This document shows positions 986-19,913 of a DNA stretch of 20,000 nt, in pieces. The stretch is from an uncultured virus (IMG/VR IMGVR_UViG_3300042556_002263) (taxonomy: Duplodnaviria > Heunggongvirae > Uroviricota > Caudoviricetes), in IMG/VR virus record IMGVR_UViG_3300042556_002263, one strand, 5' to 3'. The first letter of the stretch is position 1. Each line of letters begins with the position of its first letter. Under the pieces are notes generated by a model. It was given only the letters and a program-made list of their open reading frames with translations, had not been told where the DNA came from and searched no databases. The translations under genes were made by a program, and so were the position numbers.

Positions 986-1438
986 TTATTTTTCTGTCTT
1001 TTCCTTAGTTGTAGGTCCACCGACAACCCATGCATCGCATGTTCTTTCAGAGTGGCACTTGAAGTCAAACGCTTCACAATACCCAATTTTTCCAGCATCA
1101 ATTACATCCCATGCTGAACCGGATTCATTTCCTAGACCACCCTCTATGCAGTTGAGCATCTTTGGTGTTCTCATGAAAAGAATACAGTTACCGCACAGTT
1201 GTTTTTTTGCTTCAGTTTCAGAAACATCCCATCTATTGCCCTTCTTTTTCCAAAACTCATTGTTTGGTTGGCGCGGGTTTAATGGTCCATACGCTGCGTC
1301 GTCGATTGCTTTCTGCCTATTTTTGATATTTACTTTTATATCTTGAGTAGCAGGTGGGCAGCCCTTCTCTGCTTTGATTTCAATTCCCTCAAAACGAAAA
1401 CCTTTTATTTCGCCAGAGTAGTTAGACCATGTACTCAT
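986..1438 (-). CDS. Cys-rich phage head-module protein (150 aa), probably metal-binding
   Basis: Contains CPPATQD, YGPLNP, CGNC and GYCEAFDFKCHSERTCDAW. ATGA overlap with the upstream gene. N-terminal leader shared with 13184..13813. Confidence 0.75.
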   Translation of the reverse strand: MSTWSNYSGEIKGFRFEGIEIKAEKGCPPATQDIKVNIKNRQKAIDDAAYGPLNPRQPNNEFWKKKGNRWDVSETEAKKQLCGNCILFMRTPKMLNCIEGGLGNESGSAWDVIDAGKIGYCEAFDFKCHSERTCDAWVVGGPTTKEKTEK

Positions 1439-4266: not shown

Positions 4267-4515
4267 TTATTCGGAATGTTTTTTATCTCTAGAAATAAAA
4301 GGCTTGAAGAGGTCTGAAGTCACCGTGCTTGAATCGACGTCAATTAAATCAAATAAATCTTCAAAAATGCCGTCAATCGTAGGCTTAATTTCCTCAAGTG
4401 CGTCTGCCCGCTCGTCTTGGCCAGTTGCCCTCAAAACAGCAATGAATCGTTCGATTTCATCTATTTTCATTTTCTGAAGTTCAGAAGGAGTTGCTTTCGA
4501 ATTAAACGATGTCAT
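4267..4515 (-). CDS. Small hypothetical protein (82 aa from ATG 4515), possible partner or immunity protein of the upstream effector
   Basis: ATG 4515 overlaps the TGA of the 1108-aa gene (ATGA), which is more plausible than the track start at 4593 inside that gene. Confidence 0.6.
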   Translation of the reverse strand: MTSFNSKATPSELQKMKIDEIERFIAVLRATGQDERADALEEIKPTIDGIFEDLFDLIDVDSSTVTSDLFKPFISRDKKHSE

Positions 4516-7500
4516 TTCTTCCTCATTGTCTTTATTTCCAAACCTGGTGTTCCCTGTCTTTCTGGATAGGATAGACCAAGCAAGGCTATCCATCTTCCCC
4601 TCGGTATGGACGGGAATAGTTTTTCCAATAAATCAACAGTTGATTTATCTATTGTCGAAATATTATTGTTTGCCCTTGTTCTTTCGGAGGGTTTTGACGT
4701 AATAGTTCTGCCAACCTCCGCTATCAATTCATGCACTCCATATCTGGCATATTCAGAATATCTCTTGGCAACATCATCAAATATTCCGCCTCTGTCTCGA
4801 ATTATGTCAGTAATCATGCTGTCTTTTCTGCCAAATAACATTTCGTCTATTAGGGCATCTAATGAAAGCGTAATTTGAAGCATGTTGTTTTGAAGTACGT
4901 CTTCTACCATTTCAAGCGCTTTTGCTTTAATCTGCGGTTCCGTAAGTCCTGTATATTGCTTTTTTACTTCGCGTATTGCGTCTTCCAAGAATCTTGCTTC
5001 TATATATTTTGGTAAATCTACGCCTGCAAAAATTTTTCTTACCACTGCTCCTGGGTCACTTGCTAATTGCTCAAGACCTTTTATGTATGTATCAAATCTT
5101 GCATCAAAAGTTTGAGGGTCTACCGCCATCATTACCGAATCTAGATAATGAAACCATTCATGTCTCAATGTTTCTTGAACAAAATCAAACTTTTTGTCGT
5201 CAAAACTTGAGCCAATGGCCTCATGTTTGCCCTTTTTTATGTGCTCTCTGCCGATAACAATAAGTGCTGCAAATGGAGTATGGTATGCAGATGCATTGCC
5301 CATTGGACCACCCTCTGGCCTGCCATCCCCATTAATCATCATTGGCAAACCAAACTCCTCAACCAGGCTTCTGAATGCAGGATTATCAGTAAGTTCGTCT
5401 TCGAGAACTTTTCTAAGTTTTTCTTGCTCACGAGGGTCATATCCAATATTGGAAAGTATTGTTTTAAGTTTCCAATTTCTATTGCCTGAATCTGAAATTA
5501 TTGAATACCTTAATGCTGGTATTGAGTCAAAAAGTCTGTCGTAAAACTCGTCTTCCGTTTCGTTGCTTCCCCTTATTGGGACAAACTGTTCAACAACTTC
5601 CCTAATTCCCTTCGGTGTATCAAGTCTTCCGCGAAGAGACAGTCTTTCTATGCTTATTGGAGATGGTGGACCAGCAACCGCACCCATTGCCTCCTCTCTT
5701 TTGTAGACCCCACCATCTGCAATCATCTGAAGTTTCTTTGACAGATATACGTCAGTATTTTTAGGTGAACCGTCTTTATGTTTTGTAATTCTGTTGTTCA
5801 GCCTTTGTATAAAACGCTGAATTCTTGCCTCTATCTTTCTGTCTATGCCTGGCAGTGTGGATATAGACGTCTGAGCCCCAGTTCCCGGTTGTGTCCCAAA
5901 TGGACTTGACCCACCAACTCTCCCCTGCTGGCTTCCTGGTTTATTTTTAGGAGGCGTGTATCTAGAGCCTTTTTTCTTTTTAGAAGAAGAAGCAAACCCC
6001 ATAAACTCATCTGATTCTTTGAGTGCTTCTTGCGCTTCATCTGAAAGAACTGATTTATCGCCAGGCTTTGGCTCTAGCGGATTACCGTTCATAAACTCAT
6101 CAAGTTTTTTTTGGTCAAAAACTTCTAGTTTTCCATCTTTGAAGGATGCCAATAGTCTCGGTGGTTTTCCCGGCTCTACCTCGTTATCCCATATATAAAA
6201 TTCGTCCACTTCACCATTAGCAACAGCAGAAGAAACCATTCTTGGAATAGAGCGAGCAAAATGGTCTGTTTGGTCAGGTATTTTTCTGCCTTGGTCTTTT
6301 TCTCTTTGTCGCAATCTGCGTGATGCCTCCGCCTGCGAAACATGAACCCAATGCGCAACAACTCTGTCGCCATTCCGTCGTGCTTGTGCAATTAATGCTC
6401 TCTGTCTTGTTGAGCCAGCACCAGTTGCAACTACGTCAGAACCATCTTTTCTTGCATCATCAATTGTATGCTGTGCTGCCCTAAGTGATTCATCATGGAC
6501 CATTGGCGCACCAGCGCCATCGCTATATCCGGGTAAGCCCATTTTTATAAAATCTGGGTCAACATGGGCGGCTTCATCTCTTGCTGGAACAAGACCTTTT
6601 GGAACAAGATGGTCGTCTAGGACCGTTGTTTTGCCACCTCCAGTTGTTCCACCAATCAAATATGTTGTTCTCTGTTTTTTGCCTTTATTTTTTGGCTTAA
6701 CAAGACCGCGAATTAGTTGACCCATTTTCTTTCCACCGAGGTTTCTGAATGGGTTTGTCGGCGATGCGTCTGGGTTTTCCAAACCTTCTATGCCAAAGTC
6801 TTCGCTCTTTATTGGCTTTGAAGTTGAAGCAAAACCTCTCGTGCTTCTGCTTCTCACGGAGAAGTTTTCAATTGGTTCACCAAATAATTGTTGTCTGCGG
6901 GAAGATGATGTTTTATCAAACCACGAAGCAACAGCATCTATTGAAGATTGAGAAATTGGTTTTTGTTCTGACTGGGCCGGGAGTTTTGGTTTTGGAATAT
7001 TTGGTCTTTCAAATGCTGAACCATCTTGCAATAGGCCGTCTCCGTCTCCGTCCTCAGCATTCGGGTCAAATCTTTGTGTGATTGTTCTTGCTGCGAATCT
7101 AGACACTCCAGAGATTTTTGGACCAATAGCCTTGCCCATTATTTCCTCGACAAGACTCTTTTTTCTTTTTTTCAACTCTTGCGATAAAACAGTCCTGATT
7201 ACCTTCTGGGTATTCTTTTCTTGATTTAAGCGACCAAGCGATGTCATGCCGGTTAGGTTGTTGTAATCCGTCATGTTTGTACATGGCATCCAGACTATTT
7301 TTCCAGACTTAGACATTCTTCTACTGACGCCTATGCAGCCAAGTTGTCTTGCTCTTCTACGCGCAGATTCTATGTCTGTAAATACATCGGTGTCATTGTC
7401 TCTCGGAGAGTACTGCTCTGACTTTTCTTCAAGAGATTTTGTTGCAAAACCGCCAGGAACATTTGGTGGATTTGGATTTCCGTGAAATATCCCCGGTATA

Positions 7501-7838
7501 CGACCGCCGCTTACTATTCCAACCGGATTTCCGGGCTTGCCATTCCATGATGTTAGCCCTACGCCTGGCGTGCTGTTTATTCCGCCAACGCCTCTTTCGC
7601 GTAGGTTTTCCCAGCGTCTTTTTTTTCTTTTGCCCTTCTTTTTTCTTCTAGAAGAGCGTTTTTCCATCTCAAGTATTGTTGTTCTTGACTTAACAGACAT
7701 GGGTTCAGTGAGCGACATGTACTGTTTTATTGAGGAACAGGGAATCCATTCACCTCTTGTGTTTTGATGCGCGCCAGAGCAACCAATCTGGGCAGCCCGT
7801 CTTATTGCAAGCAGTTTTGAAACGAAACCATTTTCCAC
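4512..7838 (-). CDS. Multidomain protein (1108 aa): two DUF3721-like repeats, DGDGDG tag, zeta-toxin-like P-loop kinase, C-terminal HExxH zincin metallopeptidase
   Basis: Repeats A..RA.Q[IL]GC.G...W[IM]PC. Walker A GTTGGGKT after a hydrophobic strand, then HVDPDFIK, VHDES and A.RR..R...GRKIP. HEWFH at 5148-5162 with downstream YSEYA..HELIAE. Confidence 0.8.
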   Translation of the reverse strand: MENGFVSKLLAIRRAAQIGCSGAHQNTRGEWIPCSSIKQYMSLTEPMSVKSRTTILEMEKRSSRRKKKGKRKKRRWENLRERGVGGINSTPGVGLTSWNGKPGNPVGIVSGGRIPGIFHGNPNPPNVPGGFATKSLEEKSEQYSPRDNDTDVFTDIESARRRARQLGCIGVSRRMSKSGKIVWMPCTNMTDYNNLTGMTSLGRLNQEKNTQKVIRTVLSQELKKRKKSLVEEIMGKAIGPKISGVSRFAARTITQRFDPNAEDGDGDGLLQDGSAFERPNIPKPKLPAQSEQKPISQSSIDAVASWFDKTSSSRRQQLFGEPIENFSVRSRSTRGFASTSKPIKSEDFGIEGLENPDASPTNPFRNLGGKKMGQLIRGLVKPKNKGKKQRTTYLIGGTTGGGKTTVLDDHLVPKGLVPARDEAAHVDPDFIKMGLPGYSDGAGAPMVHDESLRAAQHTIDDARKDGSDVVATGAGSTRQRALIAQARRNGDRVVAHWVHVSQAEASRRLRQREKDQGRKIPDQTDHFARSIPRMVSSAVANGEVDEFYIWDNEVEPGKPPRLLASFKDGKLEVFDQKKLDEFMNGNPLEPKPGDKSVLSDEAQEALKESDEFMGFASSSKKKKGSRYTPPKNKPGSQQGRVGGSSPFGTQPGTGAQTSISTLPGIDRKIEARIQRFIQRLNNRITKHKDGSPKNTDVYLSKKLQMIADGGVYKREEAMGAVAGPPSPISIERLSLRGRLDTPKGIREVVEQFVPIRGSNETEDEFYDRLFDSIPALRYSIISDSGNRNWKLKTILSNIGYDPREQEKLRKVLEDELTDNPAFRSLVEEFGLPMMINGDGRPEGGPMGNASAYHTPFAALIVIGREHIKKGKHEAIGSSFDDKKFDFVQETLRHEWFHYLDSVMMAVDPQTFDARFDTYIKGLEQLASDPGAVVRKIFAGVDLPKYIEARFLEDAIREVKKQYTGLTEPQIKAKALEMVEDVLQNNMLQITLSLDALIDEMLFGRKDSMITDIIRDRGGIFDDVAKRYSEYARYGVHELIAEVGRTITSKPSERTRANNNISTIDKSTVDLLEKLFPSIPRGRWIALLGLSYPERQGTPGLEIKTMRKK

Positions 7839-7843
7839 ATTAA

Positions 7844-8173
7844 TCAGAACAAACCTGTTGGTAAGTCCCCGTCATCCATTGGGTCAACATTCTCTCGACC
7901 CTCCATCTTGAGAACTGCTTTTTGCGCCTCTTCTGGTTTATCGGCATACCTCTTTTGATACAAACGGGCTTCCTCTAGGTCGTCTGCCCATTTTGCTTCG
8001 AGAGTGGAGTACATTCTCTCCATGCCACCCTCTTCTCCAGAAGCAGAAAGTATTCTCTCTGTCTCCTTTTGAACATCCTGCTTGTACTCTTTTCTCTTTT
8101 TAAGAGATGTAGTAAAAGGAGGCCAATCAAGAATAAGTGAGTATTCTTTATGCTTTGACATGAACTCTTCCAC
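7844..8173 (-). CDS. Small charged hypothetical protein (109 aa; start may be ATG 8161)
   Basis: Packed between two large genes with gaps of 2 and 5 nt; Glu/Asp/Lys-rich. Confidence 0.65.
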   Translation of the reverse strand: MEEFMSKHKEYSLILDWPPFTTSLKKRKEYKQDVQKETERILSASGEEGGMERMYSTLEAKWADDLEEARLYQKRYADKPEEAQKAVLKMEGRENVDPMDDGDLPTGLF

Positions 8174-8175
8174 TT

Positions 8176-11100
8176 TTAACTCGCTCTCTGGATGTCGTAA
8201 ATTTCTTTCATTCTACCTCGCTTCATTGGTCCGTCAACAATGGCTAAAGCGCCTCTGTTGAACCACACAATCGGCGAATTTCCCTCATGGTCAACACCGT
8301 CGTATCCGTAAATCATGGCGGCATAGTGCTCATCTTTTGACGCAAGTGATTCCATGTATTTTAGTGCATCCCATAGTTCCTGTCTCATTTCTGGAGGTGC
8401 AGTCTCCATATATTTAAACATGTTTGACAGGAGTTGACCTGCTTCAGTTTGCCAAATTGGGTCGCCATCTGCAAACGCTTTAAGAATTTCAGCCTTTAAT
8501 TCTTTTACCAAGTCTTGCGGGTCAAGGTCTTTTGCCCCCTGTGTTCCACCGCCAATTCCGGAGAGGGCTTTATGTACTTCACTCCAAATTTTTCTATGTT
8601 CGGCCTGAAGTTTTGCTGCCTCAGTGATTGTTAAAACCCTTGTATCTGGGGAAATAAGAGCAAGCGTTCCCTGTTCATAAGCGAGATAACCATCCCAGTT
8701 CGTACCAGGTCTTGCCCAGTATTCACCAGGACCGTATACAGCACCGCCTTCACCAGTGATAAATCTTTCTGGGTCTTCAATGTAGTCCTTAATCCAACCT
8801 ATTGCTCCGGCCTCGTTGTTGGCAGGCGGTGGGGGTGTTCCGTGACCACGCTGTATTACCTTCCATCCTTGACCAGCAAGGAATTCAGCATCTTCTTCTG
8901 TTATTGGTGTAGCAAGGGCATTATATCCCTGGGCGGTCCATACATTACCTAGTTCCTTACCAGCATTTTGTCCCTTTTGTTCTTGAAGCAGTTCAAGTGC
9001 TCGCGGGTCATCTTTTCCTCTAAATAGAATTGCAAGTTTTTGAATGCCCTTTTCATCAACTTTAGGAACTCCGCCTTTTCCATTTCCAAAAATTGTTGGG
9101 TTGGATGACTTTGTCGATTCAATTTCTTTCATGACATCATCAGCGCTCGGACCACCCTTGAGTTTGCGCTTAAGTCTTCTGCCGGTTCTTGCAAGCGCTC
9201 TTCTTGCTCTTTCTTTTGCCCCCGGTGCACCTGGTCTGTCTTCGCCAAGACCGCGTACTATGCCGCGCCTTTGTCTGCGTAGTTCTCTCTTGGCTTTTGC
9301 CGCCTCGGCGTTTTCGAAAATCCTGTCGGCAAACTTTTTTAATTTTCCGCTCTTTCCTTTTCCGACAACGGCCCTCTTGCCTTCTTTGTACTGTTCATAT
9401 TCAGTAAAGAATGAAGAAGGCGCTTTCCAGTCAATTTTGGGGCGAGTTTTACCTTCAAATGGGTCTTTTGTGCCCTTCAATATACTGCCCGCCGCATTTC
9501 TGCCAAGTCCCTGATTTCGTGACCTGGCGGTCAGGTGCTCCATTAGTTCCCAGTTATCTGTTTCAAACATTGAGTCAAAAACCTTAAGGTCCTGCAGGTC
9601 ATCTAGTAGAGTCCTTTTTTCACTCTCTAGTTTTTTGACTTTATTTTCTAGTGATTTTAGCGTTTTGGGGTTTGTTGGTGTTGGTGAACTTTGCGCCGCC
9701 TGAAGAGCATTGTTTGCAGCAACTAGGTCAGAATCAATGTCTTCGATAATTGCTTCAACTGCAAGTTCGAAACTTCTTAACGCTTCTCCGGAAATCCTAG
9801 AATCTTCAGACCATGGTTTGCTGTCTGCGTCTGTTTTGGAGCCAACTTTTCCGGTCTTTGCCAAGAAAGAACCCCACCATGTGCCACTACCGTACTCATC
9901 GCCAAGTTCTCTTTTGATTGTTTTCTGAATCTGTTCATATCTATCTTTTAGATTTTCAACAACTGTTGCTTTCTGTGCATCATCAAGACCGTTAAATATC
10001 TGACCGTCAGTATCTTTAACTTTGTCAACTCCTGGTCGTTTTCTGGCCGTTGCTTTACCACGCGAAGCAAAACCCTGAACCTGTCTTTCTGTTCTTGCAG
10101 TAGAAACTCTTCTTGATACACCGCGACCCTGCTCCGCAACTGGAGTTGAACGGCTAGCAATCGGTTTGACGTTTTCTAATCTGGGTTTTCCACCGGGAGT
10201 GCGCGCTCTGCTCGGAGCATCTTTTGGTGCCTGTAACGGTTTCCCGCCAGCAACCCTCGTGGGGCTAGTTCTTCCACTGGCGCTAGAAAATCCTTGCCAC
10301 GCTCTTGTGGCGGCTCTTGCGTCTACCGCGCCACCTGTTGCCCTGTCGTTAACTCCGGGAACTGCTGGTCTTTGGTACGGAGTTCCCTCTTGCACTATGC
10401 CGTCACCATCACCGTCCCAAGCCTTGGGGTCAAATCTTGCCATTGCGGCACGACCCGCTCTTCTTGCGAGTCTTGTTCCTCCACTAAGTCTCTCGCCGAG
10501 GGCTTTGAACTCAATATTTTCACCGAGACTCTTTGTCTCTAGTGAATCAATTATTCCGGTTTTAGTTCTTATGTTTTGGGAATTTATAAGAGCAGATTTT
10601 ATTTTCATTCCAAGTCTTCTTTCCGAAGACCTTCCAACATTTGAGTCAAATCTTTGTCTTAGGGATTTGCTTTGTGGGGTGCTTGGGTTTGCGTTGTACA
10701 TCCATTTTTGGAAGTTAAATGCATAATTATTGACTTTTGCCTCATGCGCAATGCTTCCCTCTTTAATGCTTTGTCTCATGTACAGGCACTTGTAAGAAAT
10801 AGCAGGAGAATACTGATATCCAGTAAAGTAGTTAATTGGAGTATCGATTACGGCTGGAACAATAGAGGCTGTCTTTATTCTTATAGAACCGGCATGTCTA
10901 TAGGATTTTGAAGCAACAAAATTTGAAACAGAAACATCACCATATCCAAATGTAAGTATTAGAGACTTGAGTTCTGTATCGGATGTATTTTTGTATGGAC
11001 CTTGAATTATTCCGGCAGGTATTTGCGATTCCTCTAGACTCTTTACCTCTACCTTATTTGCCCAGTTAGCCCACTCTTTGCCCTGACCCTCATATCCATA

Positions 11101-11184
11101 GTATTTAATGCCATAATCGTCTTTTACAGCGATGGCGAACTTTTCATTGCGTAGTGCATCAAAGAGTGTAGATACTTGCTTCAT
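8176..11184 (-). CDS. Multidomain protein (1002 aa): N-terminal leader, DGDGDG tag, coiled coil, C-terminal ADP-ribosyltransferase-like domain
   Basis: C-terminal motifs QGYNALATPITEE..VIQRG, GGAVYGPGEYWA and YAAMIYGYDGV..IVWFNRGALAI resemble ART-like domains of phage head proteins. ATGA overlap with the upstream gene. Confidence 0.65.
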   Translation of the reverse strand: MKQVSTLFDALRNEKFAIAVKDDYGIKYYGYEGQGKEWANWANKVEVKSLEESQIPAGIIQGPYKNTSDTELKSLILTFGYGDVSVSNFVASKSYRHAGSIRIKTASIVPAVIDTPINYFTGYQYSPAISYKCLYMRQSIKEGSIAHEAKVNNYAFNFQKWMYNANPSTPQSKSLRQRFDSNVGRSSERRLGMKIKSALINSQNIRTKTGIIDSLETKSLGENIEFKALGERLSGGTRLARRAGRAAMARFDPKAWDGDGDGIVQEGTPYQRPAVPGVNDRATGGAVDARAATRAWQGFSSASGRTSPTRVAGGKPLQAPKDAPSRARTPGGKPRLENVKPIASRSTPVAEQGRGVSRRVSTARTERQVQGFASRGKATARKRPGVDKVKDTDGQIFNGLDDAQKATVVENLKDRYEQIQKTIKRELGDEYGSGTWWGSFLAKTGKVGSKTDADSKPWSEDSRISGEALRSFELAVEAIIEDIDSDLVAANNALQAAQSSPTPTNPKTLKSLENKVKKLESEKRTLLDDLQDLKVFDSMFETDNWELMEHLTARSRNQGLGRNAAGSILKGTKDPFEGKTRPKIDWKAPSSFFTEYEQYKEGKRAVVGKGKSGKLKKFADRIFENAEAAKAKRELRRQRRGIVRGLGEDRPGAPGAKERARRALARTGRRLKRKLKGGPSADDVMKEIESTKSSNPTIFGNGKGGVPKVDEKGIQKLAILFRGKDDPRALELLQEQKGQNAGKELGNVWTAQGYNALATPITEEDAEFLAGQGWKVIQRGHGTPPPPANNEAGAIGWIKDYIEDPERFITGEGGAVYGPGEYWARPGTNWDGYLAYEQGTLALISPDTRVLTITEAAKLQAEHRKIWSEVHKALSGIGGGTQGAKDLDPQDLVKELKAEILKAFADGDPIWQTEAGQLLSNMFKYMETAPPEMRQELWDALKYMESLASKDEHYAAMIYGYDGVDHEGNSPIVWFNRGALAIVDGPMKRGRMKEIYDIQRAS

Positions 11185-13184: not shown

Positions 13185-13813
13185 TAATTTTCCAAAGTCC
13201 TGTTTTCATATGGAATTGACTTAGTTCCCTCTTCTGTTTCGCCTTCTTGCTCCCAATTGGAATCGTCAGAAAGCATTTTGCAAAAATCTGGTTCCATTTG
13301 CTGGAATCCCATCATTACTTTTGCCGCAAAATCTTCATCTTCTGCTGTAACAACATTATCATAATCCTCATCACGCATATCGTCTGATTTTTTTCCTGGA
13401 TTGCCTTTTGCTATTCTTGCAACCCTTTTACTGAAATCAGAATCTGACCAAATTGAACCGTTAACTATTCCACGCATTTTTTTTCTGCAGTTTTTCATTC
13501 CAGGGTGATGGCATCCCTCATTTGGCCATAAACCAGTCGTTTCATGGTGTAGCCACGCACAGATATTGTTCAACGGATACAATTCCGGGTGGTCGGCAAG
13601 GATTACCTTACATCTGCGAAATCCACCAGGCTTTTTCATAATTGGACGCCAGTAGCGCAAAAGTCTTTCTAGGTTTCCCCTTCTTGGGCCACGACCCTTA
13701 AGAATGTCGCCAGTAAGTCTTTCCTGTGGAACATCAAAAAGAACATCTTGTGGAGCCTTTTGCTCAAATATAAAACCTTTTATGGCTCCCTTGTGTTCAC
13801 CCCATGTAGTCAT
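13184..13813 (-). CDS. Phage head-associated protein (209 aa) with Cys/His domain
   Basis: GNLERLLRYW..PGGFRRC..L..ICAWLHHETTGLWP resembles a domain recalled from actinobacteriophage head modules. Coupled to neighbours on both sides. Confidence 0.65.
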   Translation of the reverse strand: MTTWGEHKGAIKGFIFEQKAPQDVLFDVPQERLTGDILKGRGPRRGNLERLLRYWRPIMKKPGGFRRCKVILADHPELYPLNNICAWLHHETTGLWPNEGCHHPGMKNCRKKMRGIVNGSIWSDSDFSKRVARIAKGNPGKKSDDMRDEDYDNVVTAEDEDFAAKVMMGFQQMEPDFCKMLSDDSNWEQEGETEEGTKSIPYENRTLEN

Positions 13814-14256
13814 TTTTCTTTCATCCCATCTAGGCGTATTGATTTTTGAGTATTTAGCCTAACCATTGAAACATTTTGTGTTTCTAAAAGTGATTTAAAT
13901 TCAAATACTCTTCTGTTTATAGATTTTGACTTCATCTTAGATTTTAGAACATCTGTAACTATTGGAACACCAGATAAAAGGCTTTCCGGTATTTTCTGTG
14001 TTTTGTTTACAAATATTCTTTTCCATCTATCTTCATCGGAGTCTGCGTCACTGGACTCGTTGTCCCATAGATATTTATGAAAACTGCTTGATTTTATTGG
14101 TTTAAGGCCATTTAGTTTTGTAGCGGTCTTCCAAAAATTTACCACTTTGCCACCTTTGTCGGTAGACAAAACGCCGTCTCTGTTTTTTGAGTCAGCGTCA
14201 ACTACATAATAAAGTTTTTGTTCACCATTAATGGTTGCAACAAGTATTGCCTTCAT
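13810..14256 (-). CDS. Hypothetical protein (148 aa)
   Basis: ATGA overlaps at both ends; contains EFKSLLE near the C-terminus. Confidence 0.7.
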   Translation of the reverse strand: MKAILVATINGEQKLYYVVDADSKNRDGVLSTDKGGKVVNFWKTATKLNGLKPIKSSSFHKYLWDNESSDADSDEDRWKRIFVNKTQKIPESLLSGVPIVTDVLKSKMKSKSINRRVFEFKSLLETQNVSMVRLNTQKSIRLDGMKEK

Positions 14257-17200
14257 GACGCAACCTTTTCTTTTGGCTTGCTTCCCTTTTTGTCTGGAAC
14301 TGTTTTTTCTATTATTGCATTAACTTCCATTTTGGCCAGTTGCCGCAGTGCTCTAATTCCCGTCATTCCGTATGGCGGCGGCGCTATCCACGTCTGTTCG
14401 GCCATTATGTCTATACCGTTTTTGTTTGTGAATATAACTTCTGCTACCCCGAAAGATATTAATCTTTCTTTTAGTTCTTGTGCTGCTTCAACTTGAAGTA
14501 AATAGGTTAGGTATTTGGGATTGTAGCCACCGCCAACCATTCCACCCTTGTTGAAAAAGTCGTTTATCTGAGCGTCTGTCATGCCTCTCGCTTTAAGCAT
14601 GCTGGAAACCCTCTTTTTTCCACCTATTTGATGTGACTTGGATACTGGTTTGTTTTCTATGTCAAATATCGAAATAGGTATTTTGATGTGTTCTATGTCG
14701 TTAAGTGATATTTCGCCGACTATAAAACCCTCAAAAACATCATCACCATTATCTCTTAGGAAGTTTCTGTAGTCCTTATTCATATAGGCATAAAGCGCTG
14801 AGGTTATTGTTTCTGCGGCTTGTTTCCCGCCCTTTATTACATTGCCAAACACCGTCATCATTATTCTTTGTTGGCTGTCGTCGGTTAGAAGTGAATAGAA
14901 ACCTTCGTTGTCTTCGCTATCTGCTCTTCCATACCCTATGCGTTTTGAGTTTTCGGAACGTATTACGAGTTCAATTCCCCTGCCGTAGTCGGCAAATTCC
15001 TCAGAACCAACTCTTGTACCAGCCATAAATAGATTTTGTTCTATGCGTTTAGTATCTGATTCATGCATTAGTTCAACCGGGGTGAGGGAAAACTCCGCAG
15101 AAGAAACCGAGCCACCTATTATCTTGTCTCTATTTTTCTTCATTTCAGAAAGCATTTTGCTGTCTACGTCAATATTTGCAATTTTGCCGCTTGTTAAAAA
15201 CTCTTGAAGAGAAGATTTAGTCATGGATACTCTTGCTCTTCTGTCTATCGCGCCAAAAACAGAACCGGCAATCTTCAATAGAATTTTGTATATTTCATCT
15301 TCAGAGTTTGATTTCAAAAATCTATTCAGTTCTTTTTCTTCAGGGAACATTTCTTTCGATGCTTCTTCTTTTATTTGTTTTATTGAAGCGCGAATAGACT
15401 TTAGGAAAGTGTCATAGTATTCGTCTACAGAAATCTTGTTTCCGTTTATGTATACATTTTTGTCATTAAATAATGCATATCCCATTTGTGATGCAGAATT
15501 AATTATTTCTTCAGCCTTATCTAGTGTGGCCCTGGACATTCCGCTTGAAGAATAGTTTCCTGAAGAAATCATAAGGTCTCTTCTTGACTTTTTGTATTTT
15601 TCAGAACTGCCTGAAAGAAGTTTTTTAACTCTTTCGTCAGTTGTTTTTTCTATTGATTTAGCAAGTTTTTCTTCTGCCTTTTTCATGTACTCAATAGCAG
15701 ACACCTGCTCGGTGATTTCCGCCTCAGCAACACCGTCTTCACCAAATCCAGTAACTTTCATTTTTCCAGGAGGAACAAGAACGTCTCCAGATTTTTCAAC
15801 TTTTGCCTTAGAGCCAGGAGGCACAACAACTCTAACTTTTTGTTTTTTGCCAGTTGGTTTTTTCTTCTCTGGTTGTGGTTTTTCCCTTAAACCAGGGCCT
15901 AGGACTTTTATCTCTATTTCATCAAATTCTGATTTTCCAAAAAGACTAGAAACCCTATCCCTTGCTCCGGAAAGTTTTGATTTCGTTGCTTCGCTTAATT
16001 CTGATGCTCTTTCCTGAAGAACGCCAACCATTCGAATTGCGCTTGCTTTATTTTCTTCCGTGTTAACCGAATCTGCTATTTCGTTTATTGCTTTTATGAT
16101 TTCTTCCGGAAGACCTTCTTTTGCAATTTTGTCAAGACCGTATGCTCTAACTTTTTCAGCAACTTCAGGACTAATCCATCCCTTCATAAGCATCATCCCG
16201 AGCATTTTTTCTGCAGCATCTCTACTTCCGCGTCTTGCTATGGGTATTAGTGCTGCTGCTGGTCCACCAGCCGAAAAAGCAATTGCTGTTTCTGCAGCAA
16301 GCGACACAAGGTCTTCGTTTTCTGGGTCTACCCCCATTTTTTCCATTGCTTTTCGTGCCGCTCTTGAGTTGAGCAATCTTCCCGCTATCCCAGCGCCAGT
16401 TGCGGCGCGGGAAGAACTTGCGAAACCTCTTCCGTATACTTCTGCTTTGCTTATGCCTTCTGTTTCTATTACGGAACCTATTTCATAATCTGATTCGTCT
16501 ATTTCAAATTCTGCAATAATTTCTTCATCGACCTCTGATTTATCAATTATTTGCAAAACTGGAATTACGGTTTCTGTGTCGTCAAATGAAGTTTCGTTTT
16601 GCGGTTTAATACCGTATGACGAATATATGTCTTCAAGCATTGCCGCATCAGCGCCATATCCTGGATTGTCAACTGAAGAAATACTTGAAACTGGAGTACT
16701 CTCTACTGCTCTGGATATTGTTTCAATTTCACCGGCAGACAGTTTTGCATTTTGAGATTGTGAAACTCTGGAAGCAGAAGCCATTCCACCAGAATATTCC
16801 CTTAAAAATTCTGGTGCGTCTGGTCTCATTTCCCAAATTGCTCGTGTTCCTGGTAGGGAACCGTTTGTTTTTAAATATTCGTTAATGTCCCAAATGTCAT
16901 TAATTGGCGCAATGAGGCCCCTGCCTATTCTTGACTGAGTATCTTCCCATTGTTTAACTGTTCTCTCTACCCTTTCAAGATATGAACGGCATGGTCCAAC
17001 ATCGTCGTAACTATCCCTATCTCTTGCCCTTACATCAGGGGGGCAACCTGCATCAAATAACTCTCTTGCTTCTTTAAGTTTTTGACCAGCCTCAAGATAC
17101 TTTTCTCGCAACTTTGTAATCGCTTCAACAAGTTTTGCTTCTTCGTCTGGGGATATCGTATCGCCTCTTAAAAGTGAACTTGCCATTTCTTTTAAATCGA

Positions 17201-19913
17201 CATCGTCAAGCGGCAGTTCATCCATTAAATCATTAATATATTTTTTCTTTTCGCGGTCATTTGCCCCCTTATTGTCAGGGGCAATACGCATATTCCTTTG
17301 TGCTCTCCATGTGGCAAGTAGGCCACCTTTTCTTTTTGATGAACGGTCTGATGGATTTTCTGGTTTACCATCAATCAAGTCTCTAACATCATCTGTACTT
17401 ATTTCGCCGTTTCGAATTTTTACCGCTATGTCGCTAGTTCTTCTTCCGCCGAACGGGTCGTATTCTCGACTCCCCCCCTCGGATGGGGTGCGTGGTTCTG
17501 GGGCTGTTGGCACAACTATTCCTATGTCGTCTGCCGACCACCACGGAGCAAGTCCACTAGGGGTTGATGGCGTTGGTGCGCCATCTGGAACATCTGGAGT
17601 TGGTCCATCTGGTGCAGTTGAGCCTCCAGGTGTAGGTGGTGTTGATGCGGGGACCAAGGGTGATGGTGAATAAACCTTGTCTATAAAACTGTCTAGTTCT
17701 GGGTCGTCGCCTATTAGGCCAACTTTTCTGTTTGCCGCTAATTCTGTAATTGTTTCAAGAAGAGCAATGCTTCTTTCCCTATTTGCTTTTTTAAATCCTA
17801 TCGAGTCAGCATTGCCAATTGCTTGAAGAGCAGTTTGCTGTACATCTCCAGAGTATCTTCCTGCAACACCGTCTAATCTCCTATCGATGAGGTCTTCTAT
17901 ATCGGCACCAAGAGCAGCCCGAAGATGTTCTGGAGAGGCTGCTTCCAGAAAAGATTGAGCGACATCAAGAAGTTCACCGTTTGTCATATCGTCGAGTTTT
18001 TTTACCGTTCCATCACTGTTTTTAGGCAATAGTCCGGTGAAATCAGAAATACCTGATTCAGACATTGCTTCGACATAGCGACCTATTGAACGAATTTGGT
18101 CGTAATGGTAAGCCTCATGAGCCGCTGCTTGAGCGCCAAAATCTCTCCAACCATTTCCAGTCATCGCTGCTAGGTCTACCGAATATGTATGAGCCCAATA
18201 TCTGCCTGTTTCATCGGCATGAATTGTGGCCGCTATTGCCGCCCATTGTTGTTCCTGAAGTCCGCCAGTTGCTTCGTATATATCTATTGAGCCCTCTGGT
18301 GGTGCGCCTCTATGCCCCTGAACAGCCGGACCAGAACCTATGTATAAATAATCGCCTCCAGCCATTCCGTTGAGGTTGGTGAAATCATGAGCATCCGGTC
18401 CACCTCCATGTTGTTTTGTAAAGCCAGACGGGTTCACAGTTATTTTTACATTTTTTAATTCTTGCGGTCTTAGGGTTGCGTCTATTGCAAGTTGCTCAAG
18501 AGCGCCAATTTTCATTTGAGACTCTCTATCCATCATCGCTTCTATAGCCCTAGCGAATGGTGTTCCAGTTCCCTTCTCGGCCTGAAACTTTGCCTCAAGT
18601 TGACTTGGCGTTAATCCTGGATATCTTGCTTCTATAGCGTCAGCATGAATTCTAAAAAATTCATCTCTTAAAAACTGTTGATGTGTTTCTTTTGTTCCGC
18701 CTACATAAAACTCATGACCGCTAGCGGCAAATCCATATCTAGGGTCGCGACCAATTGCTTCTAAAAGATTAACTATGTCCGCTTCTTCGTCTCCTGTAGT
18801 TGGAACGCCAAGTTCGGACATTAAACGCTGAACTGTGTCTCTTTTTTCCTGAGCAATTCTTGCCATTCTCTCGGCTCGACCATCGGTAAGGCGCATTGCC
18901 TCTCTCAGTGTTGGTGCTATTGATGCCCTATATGACGGGTCGAAGTATTTTTCTCCGACAAGGTGGTCCGGTCCACCAAGGTCCGTGTATGCGGAAGCCA
19001 ACGAAGCGAGACCACGCATACCGTCTCGTTTGTATGCTTCTCTGATTTTTGTGGCAGAAATACCAACCTGTAAAAGACTTGCAACGAGTGTTACCCTGTC
19101 CTGTGATTGTGCAATATTTTGCACCGCGCCAACTATCGACTCGTCGTCCTCCGGCATTGTAAGAACCATTGCCATCGCTGCAACTATCTTTTGCCCTGCC
19201 TGTGAAACTGCAAAACAGCCTTCACCTCTTTCGTTTGTGAATCTGTTTGCCGCAGGCGTTCCGGGCGGGCATCTGAATTTTCCAAGAGCATCAACTACAA
19301 CACCGGCGGCTCTGGCGGCAAAATTTATTAATTTTCCGCCCGTTTCAGATTCGCCAATTGTCTTACCAAGACCTTTTACCTCTAGGCCCTTGTCTTCATA
19401 TGGCGCAAATGGGTCAAACGGGTCGTGCCCTGTTGACTTGATTGGATTGCCAGTTCTTGGGTCAAGTTTGTATCTTTTAACGCCAACTTTTACACCTGGT
19501 GGAGAAATTGGAGTATTGCTTTGCCCTGGTTTAACCCATCCAAAATTCGGAACAGGGTCAGCCGACATGAGGGCCGCTTTTCTTTCCGGTTCTGTCACAT
19601 GCATCTTGAGGTATGTGCCTGGTTCTTTTTTCCCGTTGGGGTCGTAAACCATTCCCCTGTCATTTACGAGTTTTGAAGAACTAGCACTTTCAAGACCGCG
19701 TTTTCTTCCGTCAGAATCGCCACTAGTTGAAGCACCAGGCATTGCCGCCTTAACAGAAACGTCGGCAATCAATCTCTCCGTGCTTGAAGTTACCCTCACT
19801 CCGGCTTTGAATAAAATTGCAGAGATGTCTGGGTCTAGACGGGTCTGTTTTGTTCGTATGCCAGGAGCGTAGTGGCGAATTTTTCTGTAGTTCACCCCCG
19901 TCATGCGGGCCAC
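14253..19913 (-). CDS. Giant multidomain protein (1886 aa): RCP..RFT..C tag, HExxH metallopeptidase-like domain, Pro-rich linker, split degenerate VIP2-like ART, C-terminal DUF3626-like domain
   Basis: AAAHEAYH at 18105-18119 with downstream GRYS..LLETITE. KVRVVVPPGSKA..DVLVPPG resembles the VIP2 ART C-half. ADYG..ELVIR...KRIGYGRADS..FEGFIVGEISLNDIEHI resembles DUF3626. Start is GTG 19913 or ATG 19904. Confidence 0.65.
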   Translation of the reverse strand: MARMTGVNYRKIRHYAPGIRTKQTRLDPDISAILFKAGVRVTSSTERLIADVSVKAAMPGASTSGDSDGRKRGLESASSSKLVNDRGMVYDPNGKKEPGTYLKMHVTEPERKAALMSADPVPNFGWVKPGQSNTPISPPGVKVGVKRYKLDPRTGNPIKSTGHDPFDPFAPYEDKGLEVKGLGKTIGESETGGKLINFAARAAGVVVDALGKFRCPPGTPAANRFTNERGEGCFAVSQAGQKIVAAMAMVLTMPEDDESIVGAVQNIAQSQDRVTLVASLLQVGISATKIREAYKRDGMRGLASLASAYTDLGGPDHLVGEKYFDPSYRASIAPTLREAMRLTDGRAERMARIAQEKRDTVQRLMSELGVPTTGDEEADIVNLLEAIGRDPRYGFAASGHEFYVGGTKETHQQFLRDEFFRIHADAIEARYPGLTPSQLEAKFQAEKGTGTPFARAIEAMMDRESQMKIGALEQLAIDATLRPQELKNVKITVNPSGFTKQHGGGPDAHDFTNLNGMAGGDYLYIGSGPAVQGHRGAPPEGSIDIYEATGGLQEQQWAAIAATIHADETGRYWAHTYSVDLAAMTGNGWRDFGAQAAAHEAYHYDQIRSIGRYVEAMSESGISDFTGLLPKNSDGTVKKLDDMTNGELLDVAQSFLEAASPEHLRAALGADIEDLIDRRLDGVAGRYSGDVQQTALQAIGNADSIGFKKANRERSIALLETITELAANRKVGLIGDDPELDSFIDKVYSPSPLVPASTPPTPGGSTAPDGPTPDVPDGAPTPSTPSGLAPWWSADDIGIVVPTAPEPRTPSEGGSREYDPFGGRRTSDIAVKIRNGEISTDDVRDLIDGKPENPSDRSSKRKGGLLATWRAQRNMRIAPDNKGANDREKKKYINDLMDELPLDDVDLKEMASSLLRGDTISPDEEAKLVEAITKLREKYLEAGQKLKEARELFDAGCPPDVRARDRDSYDDVGPCRSYLERVERTVKQWEDTQSRIGRGLIAPINDIWDINEYLKTNGSLPGTRAIWEMRPDAPEFLREYSGGMASASRVSQSQNAKLSAGEIETISRAVESTPVSSISSVDNPGYGADAAMLEDIYSSYGIKPQNETSFDDTETVIPVLQIIDKSEVDEEIIAEFEIDESDYEIGSVIETEGISKAEVYGRGFASSSRAATGAGIAGRLLNSRAARKAMEKMGVDPENEDLVSLAAETAIAFSAGGPAAALIPIARRGSRDAAEKMLGMMLMKGWISPEVAEKVRAYGLDKIAKEGLPEEIIKAINEIADSVNTEENKASAIRMVGVLQERASELSEATKSKLSGARDRVSSLFGKSEFDEIEIKVLGPGLREKPQPEKKKPTGKKQKVRVVVPPGSKAKVEKSGDVLVPPGKMKVTGFGEDGVAEAEITEQVSAIEYMKKAEEKLAKSIEKTTDERVKKLLSGSSEKYKKSRRDLMISSGNYSSSGMSRATLDKAEEIINSASQMGYALFNDKNVYINGNKISVDEYYDTFLKSIRASIKQIKEEASKEMFPEEKELNRFLKSNSEDEIYKILLKIAGSVFGAIDRRARVSMTKSSLQEFLTSGKIANIDVDSKMLSEMKKNRDKIIGGSVSSAEFSLTPVELMHESDTKRIEQNLFMAGTRVGSEEFADYGRGIELVIRSENSKRIGYGRADSEDNEGFYSLLTDDSQQRIMMTVFGNVIKGGKQAAETITSALYAYMNKDYRNFLRDNGDDVFEGFIVGEISLNDIEHIKIPISIFDIENKPVSKSHQIGGKKRVSSMLKARGMTDAQINDFFNKGGMVGGGYNPKYLTYLLQVEAAQELKERLISFGVAEVIFTNKNGIDIMAEQTWIAPPPYGMTGIRALRQLAKMEVNAIIEKTVPDKKGSKPKEKVAS

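What the first reader, a model, noticed from the sequence alone, without database searches (positions are those of the whole stretch)
4267..19913. Capsid-linked cassette of mosaic effector polyproteins with a shared tag and linker grammar
Seen: four large proteins and small coupled ORFs fill about 15.6 kb directly upstream of the HK97 capsid gene. Each large protein follows the pattern leader, K-[AGV]-type site, one of two conserved tags, then enzyme-like domains, which in three proteins are delimited by G-[FM]-[AS]-S linkers. Known: phage MuF-type and polyvalent proteins carry zeta, ART, MPTase and kinase domains and are thought to be injected. Inference: these are head-packaged cargo polyproteins cut into several host-takeover or anti-defence effectors, with addressing and processing signals that do not rely on a recognisable MuF domain.
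Basis: partly seen in the sequence, partly recalled or inferred. Interest (0 to 1): 0.88.

Follow-up and report, generated by a model that had tools for sequence, protein, structure and literature searches.

The report
Phage head polyproteins with cut-site grammar
An uncultured large phage places several giant multi-domain proteins between its head-protease and capsid genes, all built to one shared plan of leader, probable cut site, short tag and domains joined by a recurring linker, so they are probably loaded into the capsid and cut into many pieces, though no cut has been observed.

Summary
Four large ORFs (1886, 667, 1002 and 1108 aa) and four small, translationally coupled ORFs fill 4267-19913 on the minus strand, directly upstream of an HK97-type capsid gene. 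The linker occurs 6 times against 0.29 expected.

Relatives (342 IMG/VR loci) extend the picture:
- The module runs portal, then an S78 prohead protease fused to a 0.8-2.3 kaa extension, then the giants, then the capsid gene.
- The protease fusion itself carries tag A and 8-9 linker motifs.
- The linker is kept at orthologous junctions.
- Its sequence differs between lineages (GFAS, GLAS, GMRS, LRSS, ISGRM, TASM).
- In one complete 137.8-kb genome, all 15 copies lie in head-module proteins.
- The K-[GA]-[LI]-G site resembles the capsid's own delta/mature junction.
- It coincides with the end of free-standing homologues of the gpG leader.

Best reading: these are capsid-loaded polyproteins processed by the phage protease. 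This is a new variant of T4/phiKZ-type head-protein processing.

Not shown: packaging, cleavage, or which protease acts. Only the zeta-toxin domain is identified robustly. The ART and metallopeptidase calls remain leads.

The parts
14253..19913 (-). gpA, 1886 aa from GTG (1883 aa from the ATG at 19904). Leader 1-179, K-G-L-G site, tag B, HExxH region, Pro-rich linker, then two G-Phi-A-S junctions and a C-terminal region.
   Evidence: No Pfam, PHROG or NCBIfam family.
19350..19376 (-). gpA site-1, KGLGKTIGE.
   Evidence: Kept as K-[GSAQ]-L-G-x-T-[IL]-x-E in 35 of 35 homologues.
19215..19271 (-). gpA tag B (C-P-P-G...R-F-T-N...C).
   Evidence: Nearly invariant in 35 homologues.
18105..18119 (-). 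gpA HExxH.
   Evidence: Present in 35 of 35 homologues. No peptidase family or PDB hit.
16776..16787 (-). gpA linker motif GMAS (residue 1043).
   Evidence: GGMAS in 13 of 35 homologues, and a shifted G-[LI]-A-S-[KR] in about 17 more.
16416..16427 (-). gpA linker motif GFAS (residue 1163).
   Evidence: Positionally kept in about 33 of 35 homologues, with Phi and x varying.
13810..14256 (-). gpB, 148 aa, ATGA-coupled small ORF, conserved in relatives.
13184..13813 (-). gpC, 209 aa, Cys/His-rich, 52-75% identical in relatives.
   Evidence: phrog_6439 at 5.8e-4.
11181..13184 (-). gpD, 667 aa, core protein of the lineage. Short leader, Y-K-A-L site-like motif (13032-13061), tag B (12774-12830), no linker motif.
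   Evidence: (648 homologues, all unnamed)
8176..11184 (-). gpE, 1002 aa. Conserved leader 1-226, site-1 (10477-10506), tag A (10366-10434), linkers GFSS (10282-10293) and GFAS (10063-10074), middle region, C-terminal domain 735-1002 (8179-8982).
7844..8173 (-). gpF, 109 aa, acidic small ORF upstream of the zeta-bearing gene.
   Evidence: Found in 30 of 49 loci with the zeta domain and 0 of 31 without it. Alignment A6.
4512..7838 (-). gpG, 1108 aa. Leader with two DUF3721 repeats (7731-7826, 7275-7367) split by GFAT (7440-7451). Then site-1 (7104-7133), tag A (7002-7070), GFAS (6825-6836), zeta-toxin domain (6264-6689), GFAS (5988-5999), and a C-terminal HExxH domain (HEWFH at 5148-5162).
4267..4515 (-). 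gpH, 82 aa from the ATGA-coupled ATG. Found only in the two closest relatives.
2811..4148 (-). HK97-type major capsid protein with an N-terminal delta domain. The junction KGIGNKSIGD lies at 3849-3878.
   Evidence: (three hits lacking the delta region start at query residue 96)

Best explanation
The cassette is the distal part of an expanded head-morphogenesis module of an uncultured myovirus of about 130 kb. Its giant genes most likely encode capsid-loaded polyproteins built to one plan.

1. An N-terminal leader brings the protein into the procapsid. In gpG it is a DUF3721 protein that also exists free-standing just upstream of the capsid gene in relatives. In the largest polyprotein of relatives the leader is the S78 prohead protease itself.
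2. A K-[GA]-[LI]-G-x-x-[ILT]-[GS] site follows. It resembles the capsid protein's own delta/mature junction, and the leader is removed there.
3. A short module with tag A (an acidic D-G-D-G-D-G loop) or tag B (a Cys-bracketed loop) follows. It would become the new N-terminus and is shared by four proteins per genome.
4. Unrelated domains are strung together by R-x-G-Phi-[AS]-S-x-[ST] linkers. The phage protease cuts these, probably before the Ser as assemblin-type proteases do (the assemblin and HK97 precedents are recalled, not from a call).

The products include a zeta-toxin-type kinase and two HExxH domains. They would stay in the head and leave with the DNA. gpF may hold the zeta domain in check in the producing cell.

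Shown: gene order, motifs, their conservation, lineage specificity and confinement.
Inferred: packaging, cleavage, the protease responsible, and ejection.
For: Synteny in relatives:
- Terminase | portal (PF04860, 2.2e-48), then a 1935-2290 aa protein with an N-terminal Peptidase_S78 domain (8.7e-11 and 3.3e-11), then a 466-474 aa protein, then the gpA homologue (59% identity), and on to the capsid gene.
- S78 lies in ORFs of 789-1667 aa in 4 of 5 further relatives.

Shared module:
- The only within-genome paralogy among the giants is the 40-75 aa site-1 plus tag A module. It occurs in four proteins per genome at 42-79% identity, the protease fusion among them.
- The site always lies 20-30 aa upstream of the tag.

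Module boundary:
- Free-standing leader homologues of 207-245 aa lie directly upstream of the capsid gene. They end exactly where site-1 begins.
- Of 99 short homologues of the leader, 71 carry DUF3721 alone or nothing, 21 add Zeta_toxin, and 7 add another family.

Capsid junction:
- It reads K-[GS]-[LI]-G-x(2-3)-S-I-G-[DEQ] in the close clade.
- A distant clade has M-G-R-K-S-I-G-E beside cargo sites K-A-L-G-R-S-I-G-G.
- Homology to capsid proteins without a delta region starts at residue 96.

Linker motif:
- 62 copies in proteins of 750 aa or more from the window, G1 and G2. R is at -2 in 31 of 62.
- G2 uses L in 29 of 29 copies. G1 uses F 16, L 8, M 2.
- Other lineages use LRSS, GMRS, ISGRM or TASM.
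- In the complete genome G004, 15 of 15 [ST]GRM copies lie in five head-module proteins. SGRM is the top enriched 4-mer of the proteome, 14 observed against 0.44 expected.
- GLAS in G2: 29 observed against 1.43 expected.
- The motif is kept at junctions even where the downstream domain differs.
Against: - There is no protein-level evidence. The window itself does not contain the protease gene; that gene is seen only in relatives.
- In G1 and G2 the motif also occurs three times in a tape-measure-like tail protein, with the same F/L preference as the rest of each genome. A protease confined to proheads should not reach that protein.
- A 3.1-3.2 kaa protein with the site, tag A and 10-11 motifs is encoded outside the head module and has a leader of only about 36 aa.
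- The capsid junction matches the cargo site only loosely. The spacer differs, and G1 has K-S-V-Y-G.
- gpD's site is weak.
- Alignment conservation around the motifs is not distinctly low.
- Most segments have no recognisable enzyme fold.
Confidence: 0.55

Rival explanations
1. The linkers are cut by the HExxH (zincin-like) domains carried by the polyproteins themselves (gpA middle, gpG C-terminus), not by the S78 prohead protease. Cutting may happen after ejection into the host. This is what Iyer et al. proposed for the MPTase domains of polyvalent proteins.
For: - HExxH is kept in 35 of 35 gpA homologues.
- The gpG C-terminal domain has a conserved upstream His, HEWFHYLD with Asp at +3, and a downstream HELIAE. 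This fits the phage-type MPTase described in PMC5512222 (passages read).
- That paper proposes autoproteolytic release of domains inside the head or after injection.
- It would explain motifs in the tape-measure-like protein, which is ejected too.
Against: - No peptidase family or PDB match for either HExxH region.
- The two regions are not detectably related to each other (hhalign probability 11%).
- The gpG-type domain is absent from G2 and several other relatives that keep the motif.
- The S78 fusion carries the most motifs and is present in every lineage examined whose record covered that region.
Confidence: 0.15
2. The motifs are not cleavage sites. They are short linear motifs for something else, such as docking to the capsid interior or the DNA, a serine modification, or a hinge. 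The giants stay intact as internal or ejection proteins, like the N4 virion RNA polymerase.
For: - Ser is the one residue common to all lineage variants.
- The motif occurs in a tail tape-measure-like protein.
- According to PMC5512222 (passage), N4 vRNAP is packaged unprocessed.
- Conservation around the motifs is unremarkable.
Against: - There are many copies per chain, spaced 50-380 aa apart.
- They sit at junctions where domains are swapped.
- Flanks are basic and poor in hydrophobic residues.
- A protease is fused to the chain with the most copies.
- Analogous systems in T4 and phiKZ/SPN3US are cleavage systems (abstracts in the listing).
Confidence: 0.12
3. The polyproteins are processed as proposed, but the products are mainly structural: an inner body, DNA-condensing proteins or an ejection channel. 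They are not host-takeover or anti-defence effectors.
For: - Most segments have no enzyme signature.
- gpD, gpA, gpB and gpC are core and conserved across lineages.
- The giants take up about a quarter to a third of coding capacity: 9212 + 3212 of 37,036 aa in G1 and 10,375 of 43,903 aa in G004, by a crude ORF caller.
Against: - There is a zeta-toxin domain with an intact P-loop.
- The distal domains vary and are swapped on a constant leader.
- Relatives carry HipA/APH-like, HTH/sigma-r4, KTSC and pentapeptide-repeat modules.
- gpF co-occurs with the zeta domain.
Confidence: 0.15

Closest known systems
T4 internal proteins and Alt: capsid-targeting sequence plus gp21 prohead-protease processing
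   Same: Proteins are loaded into the prohead by an N-terminal signal. The head protease removes that signal at a motif shared with other head proteins, and the proteins are then injected. One of them is an enzyme effector. (PMC5512222 passages; otherwise my own knowledge.)
   Different: - The protease family here is S78 (HK97-type), not T4 gp21.
- The leaders are folded domains of 180-445 aa rather than about 10 residues.
- The chains are 0.7-3.4 kaa with many internal sites.
- The motif is G-Phi-[AS]-S rather than L/I-x-E (the T4 motif is recalled).
phiKZ / SPN3US head and ejection proteins processed by the prohead protease (gp175 / gp245)
   Same: Many head-internal proteins are cut at one consensus by an essential phage protease and then ejected (abstracts of PMC10052503, PMC7411985 and PMC5694885 in the listing).
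   Different: - Those are jumbo phages with a T4-like protease.
- Their substrates are mostly separate genes cut once or a few times.
- Here the genome is about 130 kb with an HK97-type capsid and protease, and bead-on-string chains have up to 11 sites.
Polyvalent proteins of phages and conjugative elements (Iyer, Burroughs, Anand, de Souza, Aravind 2017, PMC5512222)
   Same: Giant multi-domain proteins are encoded next to portal/terminase-type packaging genes. They are predicted to be packaged and injected, with zincin-like MPTase domains proposed to release the other domains (passages).
   Different: - No MuF, portal or ArdC-N fusion is present.
[quoted passage not shown]
- In the passages I read, that paper does not describe a shared leader/site/tag module or a recurring linker motif.
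- 'zeta toxin' has 0 occurrences in its main text.
Herpesvirus UL26 protease-scaffold fusion with release and maturational sites
   Same: A capsid-maturation serine protease forms the N-terminus of a longer assembly polypeptide and frees itself and its partners by cutting at short sites. The in vivo C-terminus of PrV assemblin is an Ala (PMC4498786 passages). S78 and assemblin share a fold (recalled).
   Different: The herpesvirus protease has two sites and one scaffold partner. Here there are 8-9 sites in the fusion, and further substrate chains carry unrelated domains.
HK97 gp4/gp5 maturation
   Same: Same capsid (TIGR01554) and protease (TIGR01543/PF04586) families. A delta domain is removed at a junction just before an S-[IL]-G N-arm (the HK97 cut after Lys103 is recalled).
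   Different: HK97 has no cargo proteins and a free 25-kDa protease.

Membership tests
HK97-type major capsid protein (PF05065 / TIGR01554) | Profile match above the curated cut-off over the whole fold | tested here: met
   PF05065 147.2 bits against cut-off 24.2. TIGR01554 120.3 bits against 27.5. phrog_10 at 3.5e-63.
Zeta toxin / UNAG-kinase family (PF06414) | Profile match above cut-off, and a P-loop | tested here: met
   47.9 bits against cut-off 22.3, gpG 384-525. The family profile hits PDB 1gvn zeta at E 0.0015, with the GGTTGxGK[ST] stretch aligned to the zeta P-loop.
Zeta toxin / UNAG-kinase family (PF06414) | Cognate epsilon-type antitoxin encoded directly upstream | tested here: inconclusive
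   gpF (109 aa) lies directly upstream. It co-occurs with the zeta domain in 30 of 49 loci and in 0 of 31 loci without it, though the loci are not phylogenetically independent.
Polyvalent proteins (Iyer et al. 2017) | Two or more unrelated effector-type domains in one polypeptide, encoded beside virion packaging genes | tested here: met
   gpG carries zeta plus an HExxH domain. The cassette lies between portal/protease (in relatives) and the capsid gene.
Polyvalent proteins (Iyer et al. 2017) | Zincin-like MPTase domain recognisable by profile | tested here: inconclusive
   HExxH and the flanking conserved His/Asp/Glu fit the paper's description. There is no Pfam or PDB profile hit.
MuF-type head protein fusions (PF04233 and relatives) | MuF domain at the N-terminus | tested here: not met
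   No MuF family in any of the 8 cassette proteins at E<=0.01, nor in 17 segments at E<=1. The only trace is an Atlas lead: Phage_min_cap2 in 14% of one cluster, at score 0.90.
ART-PolyVal ADP-ribosyltransferase (PF18760) | Profile match, and a catalytic R/H...S/Y...E constellation | tested here: not met
   - No Pfam hit at E<=1 in 11 homologues or in the isolated segment.
- None at E<=0.01 in 44 of the 74 clusters that carry the domain.
- The PDB profile's best E is 0.45, to unrelated chains.
- The only support is Atlas feature similarity of 0.91 to clusters in which 22-35% of members carry PF18760.
- Conserved R-G and G-x-G-E-Y-W are seen, but no clear catalytic Glu.
Substrates of an S78 (HK97-type) prohead protease | S78 protease encoded in the same head module | tested here: met
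   Not in the window. It is present in relatives G001, G002 and G003, and in 4 of 5 further records; the fifth is a 44%-complete fragment.
Substrates of an S78 (HK97-type) prohead protease | Cleavage at the proposed sites during head maturation | not testable with these tools
   This needs virion proteomics or an in vitro assay.

The most novel reading that the evidence does not exclude
A large, so far uncultured clade of aquatic myoviruses spends a quarter to a third of its coding capacity on capsid-delivered polyproteins. The clade comprises 342 capsid-related IMG/VR loci and more than 600 gpD clusters. The polyproteins are written in a co-evolving 'grammar': a folded leader (in one case the prohead protease itself), a capsid-like maturation site, a short acidic (possibly Ca-binding) or Cys-loop tag that becomes the new N-terminus, and interchangeable domains separated by a lineage-specific protease motif. 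That would be a polyprotein strategy like those of herpesviruses and RNA viruses, operating inside a tailed-phage head. It would deliver two dozen or more distinct products per infection.
Probability: 0.4. Interest if true: 0.85.

Novelty: new variant of a known kind. Interest (0 to 1): 0.7.

Why it matters
If these chains are loaded and cut as proposed, several things follow.

- HK97-type (S78) proteases would have a readable and evolvable substrate code. Processed head and ejection proteins could then be predicted from sequence in a large group of environmental phages.
- The system would be a natural cargo-loading device (leader + site + tag) for HK97-fold shells.
- Dozens of domain families with no known fold or function would be marked as candidate injected proteins.
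- A testable toxin/inhibitor pair emerges (zeta domain and gpF).
- It would provide a clean case of co-evolution between a protease and its sites.

No cultured phage in the collection searched carries gpD, gpE or the gpG leader. The biology is therefore unexplored at the bench.

Tried and rejected
- **Whole genome of the window:** not held.
- **Near-identical DNA in cultured phages:** none.
- **Cultured phages with the closest capsid proteins** (Cantare, DalanDe; about 48% identity):
  - They also have large proteins and HEIGH domains between portal and capsid.
  - They show no sequence similarity to gpA-gpH, no repeated G-Phi-x-S and no DGDGDG.
  - They therefore give no experimental handle.
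- **Pfam, PHROGs and NCBIfam** on whole proteins, on 17 segments and on homologue sets: beyond capsid, zeta, DUF3721 and DUF6321, only two weak unknown-function PHROG matches (phrog_7924 on tag A, phrog_6439 on gpC).
- **PDB profile searches** for the gpE, gpD, gpA, gpE C-domain, gpG HExxH and gpA HExxH alignments: nothing.
- **hhalign of the two HExxH regions:** probability 11%.
- **Protein Atlas:** an ART-PolyVal lead for the gpE C-domain; only unnamed clusters for the gpG C-terminus.
- **Transmembrane segments:** none convincing; the 19-residue Kyte-Doolittle maximum is 1.42.
- **Host:** one 6.3-kb contig binned with a Bacteroidia MAG carries a gpD relative at 39% identity. This is too weak to name a host.
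- **A suspected terminal duplication in G001:** checked and rejected.
- **Structure prediction:** closed at every attempt.
- **Complex prediction** for zeta domain + gpF: not available. No fold, no disorder test and no binding test could be made.
- **One protein search timed out**.
- **Literature searches:**
  - Searches for head polyproteins with an S78 protease, and for DUF3721, found no description of this system. Only listings and the cited passages were read.
  - The 'polyprotein' of PMC7689252 is a DNA polymerase fusion and is unrelated.

Full report
**What is in the window**

All relevant genes lie on the minus strand.
- gpA: 14253-19913, 1886 aa. An identical database protein of 1883 aa points to the ATG at 19904 as the start.
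- gpB: 148 aa. gpC: 209 aa.
- gpD: 11181-13184, 667 aa.
- gpE: 8176-11184, 1002 aa.
- gpF: 109 aa.
- gpG: 4512-7838, 1108 aa.
- gpH: 82 aa from an ATGA-coupled ATG.

After a 118-nt gap comes an HK97-type major capsid protein at 2811-4148 (PF05065 8.1e-43; TIGR01554 1.1e-34).

Gene junctions are ATGA four times, TAATG once, and gaps of 2 and 5 nt. The 'small coupled ORFs' of the finding are therefore real.

Family searches name only four things beyond the capsid: a zeta-toxin domain in gpG (residues 384-525, 1.4e-12), two DUF3721 repeats at its N-terminus, a weak match of the zeta region to a PHROG of 'minor head proteins', and a weak match of the tag A stretch to phrog_7924, a family of unknown function. 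gpA, gpB, gpD, gpE, gpF and gpH have no family, and gpC has only a weak unknown-function PHROG match (phrog_6439, 5.8e-4), in Pfam, PHROGs or NCBIfam.

**The motifs**

- Tag A (F-D-P-x-A-x-D-G-D-G-D-G ... R-P) is in gpE and gpG.
- Tag B (C-P-x-G ... R-F-T ... C) is in gpA and gpD.
- Both tags are preceded at 20-30 residues by K-[GA]-[LI]-G-x-x-[ILT]-[GS]. gpD has only Y-K-A-L.
- G-[FM]-[AS]-S occurs six times in gpA, gpE and gpG against 0.29 in shuffles; 0 of 2000 shuffles reach 6.
- The flanks are poor in hydrophobic residues: 0.193 against 0.272, with 3 of 2000 placements as extreme.

**The wider module**

No whole genome is held for the window. No cultured phage is close: there is no DNA match. 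gpD, gpE and the gpG leader have no tblastn match among 50,697 records.

The capsid protein has 342 relatives among IMG/VR contigs at 68-86% identity. In three long relatives the gene order is as follows:
1. terminase (divergent);
2. portal;
3. a 1935-2290 aa protein whose first ~170 residues are a Peptidase_S78 prohead protease;
4. a 466-474 aa protein;
5. the gpA homologue;
6. gpB, gpC, gpD, gpE, gpF, gpG;
7. the capsid gene.

In four of five further relatives the S78 domain again lies in an ORF of 789-1667 aa; the fifth record is a 44%-complete fragment. The phages have a tail sheath, so they are myoviruses. The window therefore shows the distal two thirds of a head module about 30 kb long.

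**The site and tag form one shared module**
- Within a genome, the only similarity among the giants is a 40-75 residue stretch comprising the K-site and tag A.
- It occurs in four proteins per genome: the protease fusion, the gpE-like protein, the gpG-like protein, and a 3.1-3.2 kaa protein encoded elsewhere. Identity is 42-79%.
- Even divergent lineages keep K-x-L-G-x-x-I-G-G followed by D-G-D-G-D-G.
- In 35 gpA homologues the site and tag B are nearly invariant.

**The K-site is a module boundary**
- The first ~233 residues of gpG occur in six relatives as a free-standing 207-245 aa protein directly upstream of the capsid gene. These proteins end at '...ELKKRK..', exactly where the site begins in gpG.
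- Of 99 shorter database homologues of this leader, 71 carry DUF3721 alone or no family, 21 add a zeta-toxin domain, and 7 add another family.
- gpE shows the same logic. Its leader and tag are recognisable in proteins of 950-2206 aa whose remaining parts differ.

**The capsid protein's own junction resembles the K-site**
- In the window the junction between delta domain and mature part reads K-G-I-G-N-K-S-I-G-D.
- In the close clade it reads K-[GS]-[LI]-G-x(3)-[ST]-[IV]-G-[DEQ].
- In a distant clade it reads M-G-R-K-S-I-G-E, beside cargo sites K-A-L-G-R-S-I-G-G.
- Homology to capsid proteins that lack the delta region starts at residue 96.
- The resemblance is suggestive but loose. The spacer differs by one residue, and relative G1 has K-S-V-Y-G.

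**The linker motif behaves like the substrate code of one genome-encoded reader**
- In the window plus two whole relatives there are 62 copies of G-[FLM]-[AS]-S in proteins of 750 aa or more.
- The consensus is R(-2, 31 of 62)-[SG]-G-[LF]-[AS]-S-[SRT]-[ST].
- Relative G2 uses Leu in 29 of 29 copies. G1 uses Phe 16, Leu 8, Met 2.
- Counts per protein: the protease fusions carry 8 and 9 copies, the 3.1-3.2 kaa proteins 10 and 11, and the gpA-, gpE- and gpG-like proteins 1-2 each.
- Outside these proteins and a tape-measure-like protein, only 2 copies per genome occur in roughly 25,000 residues, which is about the chance level.
- More distant lineages repeat other short motifs: [TSN]-L-R-S-S, G-G-M-R-S, I-S-G-R-M and P-T-A-S-M.
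- Among 74 cluster representatives carrying the gpE C-domain, the commonest repeat is G-M-R-S, up to 14 copies in one 2386-aa protein.
- In the complete 137,811-bp genome G004, 15 of 15 [ST]-G-R-M copies lie in five head-module proteins. S-G-R-M is the most enriched 4-mer of the whole proteome, 14 observed against 0.44 expected.
- In G005, 13 of 16 G-[MLF]-[RA]-S copies lie in the head module.

At orthologous positions the motif persists while Phi and the third residue change.
- gpE 371 is kept in 11 of 11 homologues.
- gpG 335 and 614 are kept, including relatives whose downstream domain is different.
- gpA 1163 is kept in about 33 of 35 homologues.

Against this: gpE 298 is unique to the window, and a crude conservation measure around the motifs is unremarkable.

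**What the domains are**
- Zeta toxin: robust.
- gpG C-terminus: it has an invariant His, H-E-W-F-H-Y-L-D and H-E-L-I-A-E. This fits the phage-type MPTase described in passages of PMC5512222.
- gpA: it keeps HExxH in 35 of 35 homologues.
- Neither HExxH region matches any peptidase family or solved structure, and the two are not detectably related.
- gpE C-terminal domain: it occurs in 74 clusters, nearly always near the end of chains of 900-2980 aa.
  - A language-model search places it next to clusters partly annotated ART-PolyVal, at score 0.91.
  - No profile method supports that placement.
- No kinase other than zeta is seen in the window. Relatives carry weak HipA/APH-like, HTH/sigma-r4, KTSC and pentapeptide-repeat modules.
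- gpD is a core protein with more than 600 unnamed homologues.

**Mechanism proposed**

Leaders bring the chains into the procapsid. In the largest chain the leader is the protease itself, much as the herpesvirus protease is the N-terminus of a scaffold chain that frees itself at short sites (PMC4498786 passages). Maturation removes the leaders at the K-site, in parallel with removal of the capsid delta domain. This exposes the tag module as the new N-terminus. The linkers are then cut.

I recall, but did not verify here, two precedents: assemblin cuts (V/L)-x-A|S, and HK97 gp5 is cut before a Ser. On that basis G-Phi-A|S is the likely bond.

The D-x-D-x-D-G pattern of tag A looks like a calcium-binding loop. 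That is my reading, untested.

gpF lies directly upstream of the zeta-bearing gene in 30 of 49 loci with the zeta domain, and in none of 31 without it. It may act as an epsilon-like inhibitor, but the loci are not independent and the complex test was unavailable.

**Open problems**
- In G1 and G2 a tape-measure-like protein carries three motif copies with the genome's own Phe/Leu preference. A protease confined to proheads cannot explain this. In G004 the tape-measure-sized protein has none.
- The 3.1-3.2 kaa protein has almost no leader and lies outside the head module.
- Either the HExxH domains or the S78 protease could be the enzyme.

**Comparison and novelty**

The logic is that of T4 (targeting sequence plus gp21) and of phiKZ/SPN3US (abstracts in the listing). 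The architecture recalls the polyvalent proteins of PMC5512222.

The differences are:
- a shared leader/site/tag module;
- a lineage-specific linker code;
- no MuF domain.

Four literature searches found no description of this system.

Earlier unchecked notes of this scan describe analogous 'polyprotein plus protease-type linker' systems in other phage lineages. The general theme therefore recurs. This lineage and its motif set are new to those notes: the sequence look-ups found nothing.

Verdict: a real, non-chance feature, and a new variant of a known kind.

Noticed in passing
window 13762-13813 (gpC N-terminus) and 1388-1438 (150-aa ORF 986-1438, minus strand): Two otherwise unrelated small proteins, one inside the cassette and one downstream of the capsid gene, share their first 17 residues (M-[ST]-T-W-...-G-x-I-K-G-F-x-F-E). 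Identity is 10 of 17, E 1e-4 for the single comparison. This may be a shared N-terminal signal.
   Followed up: partly
window 7844-8173 (gpF): This small acidic ORF is found only in loci whose next gene carries the zeta-toxin domain (30 of 49 with the domain, 0 of 31 without). It is a candidate epsilon-like inhibitor or chaperone. The binding test was not available.
   Followed up: partly
relatives: L093:6591-16226 (G001) and G002 28352-37690: A 3112-3212 aa protein is encoded away from the head module, on its own between opposite-strand genes. It starts with the K-site at residue ~37 and tag A at ~59, and carries 10-11 linker motifs. No family was found.
   Followed up: partly
relatives: L092:10814-15487 (G001) and G002 89119-93672: A tape-measure-like tail protein (weak PHROG match, lying near the tail-sheath gene in the tail module) carries three linker motifs at similar positions in both genomes. 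Each genome uses its own Phe or Leu preference. A prohead-only protease does not explain this.
   Followed up: partly
L009:5785-9633: The gpG homologue of this relative has a ~150-residue insertion between the two DUF3721 repeats of the leader. The insertion starts with its own K-S-L-G-Q-T-I-G site and a D-G-D-G-D-G tag.
   Followed up: no
L036:12901-13722 and L037:12911-13729: A 272-273 aa protein downstream of the capsid gene begins, after only ~8 residues, with K-I-L-G-x-P-I-G and D-G-D-G-D-G. The site/tag module is therefore not restricted to giant proteins.
   Followed up: no
window 3001-4000: The capsid gene has a G+C fraction of 0.57, against 0.37-0.48 for the rest of the window.
   Followed up: no
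window 2-454 (+) and 1435-2130 (-): The C-terminal end of a ribonucleotide reductase (phrog_367, 3.3e-25) runs into the window on the plus strand. A DUF6321 protein (2.1e-30) lies downstream of the capsid gene.
   Followed up: no
L001 and L002 (Brevibacterium phage Cantare, Gordonia phage DalanDe): These are the cultured phages with the nearest capsid proteins. They also place 0.7-1.6 kaa proteins with H-E-I-G-H motifs between portal and capsid, and DalanDe's annotated capsid maturation protease is 1633 aa. They lack the repeated linker motif and the tags.
   Followed up: partly
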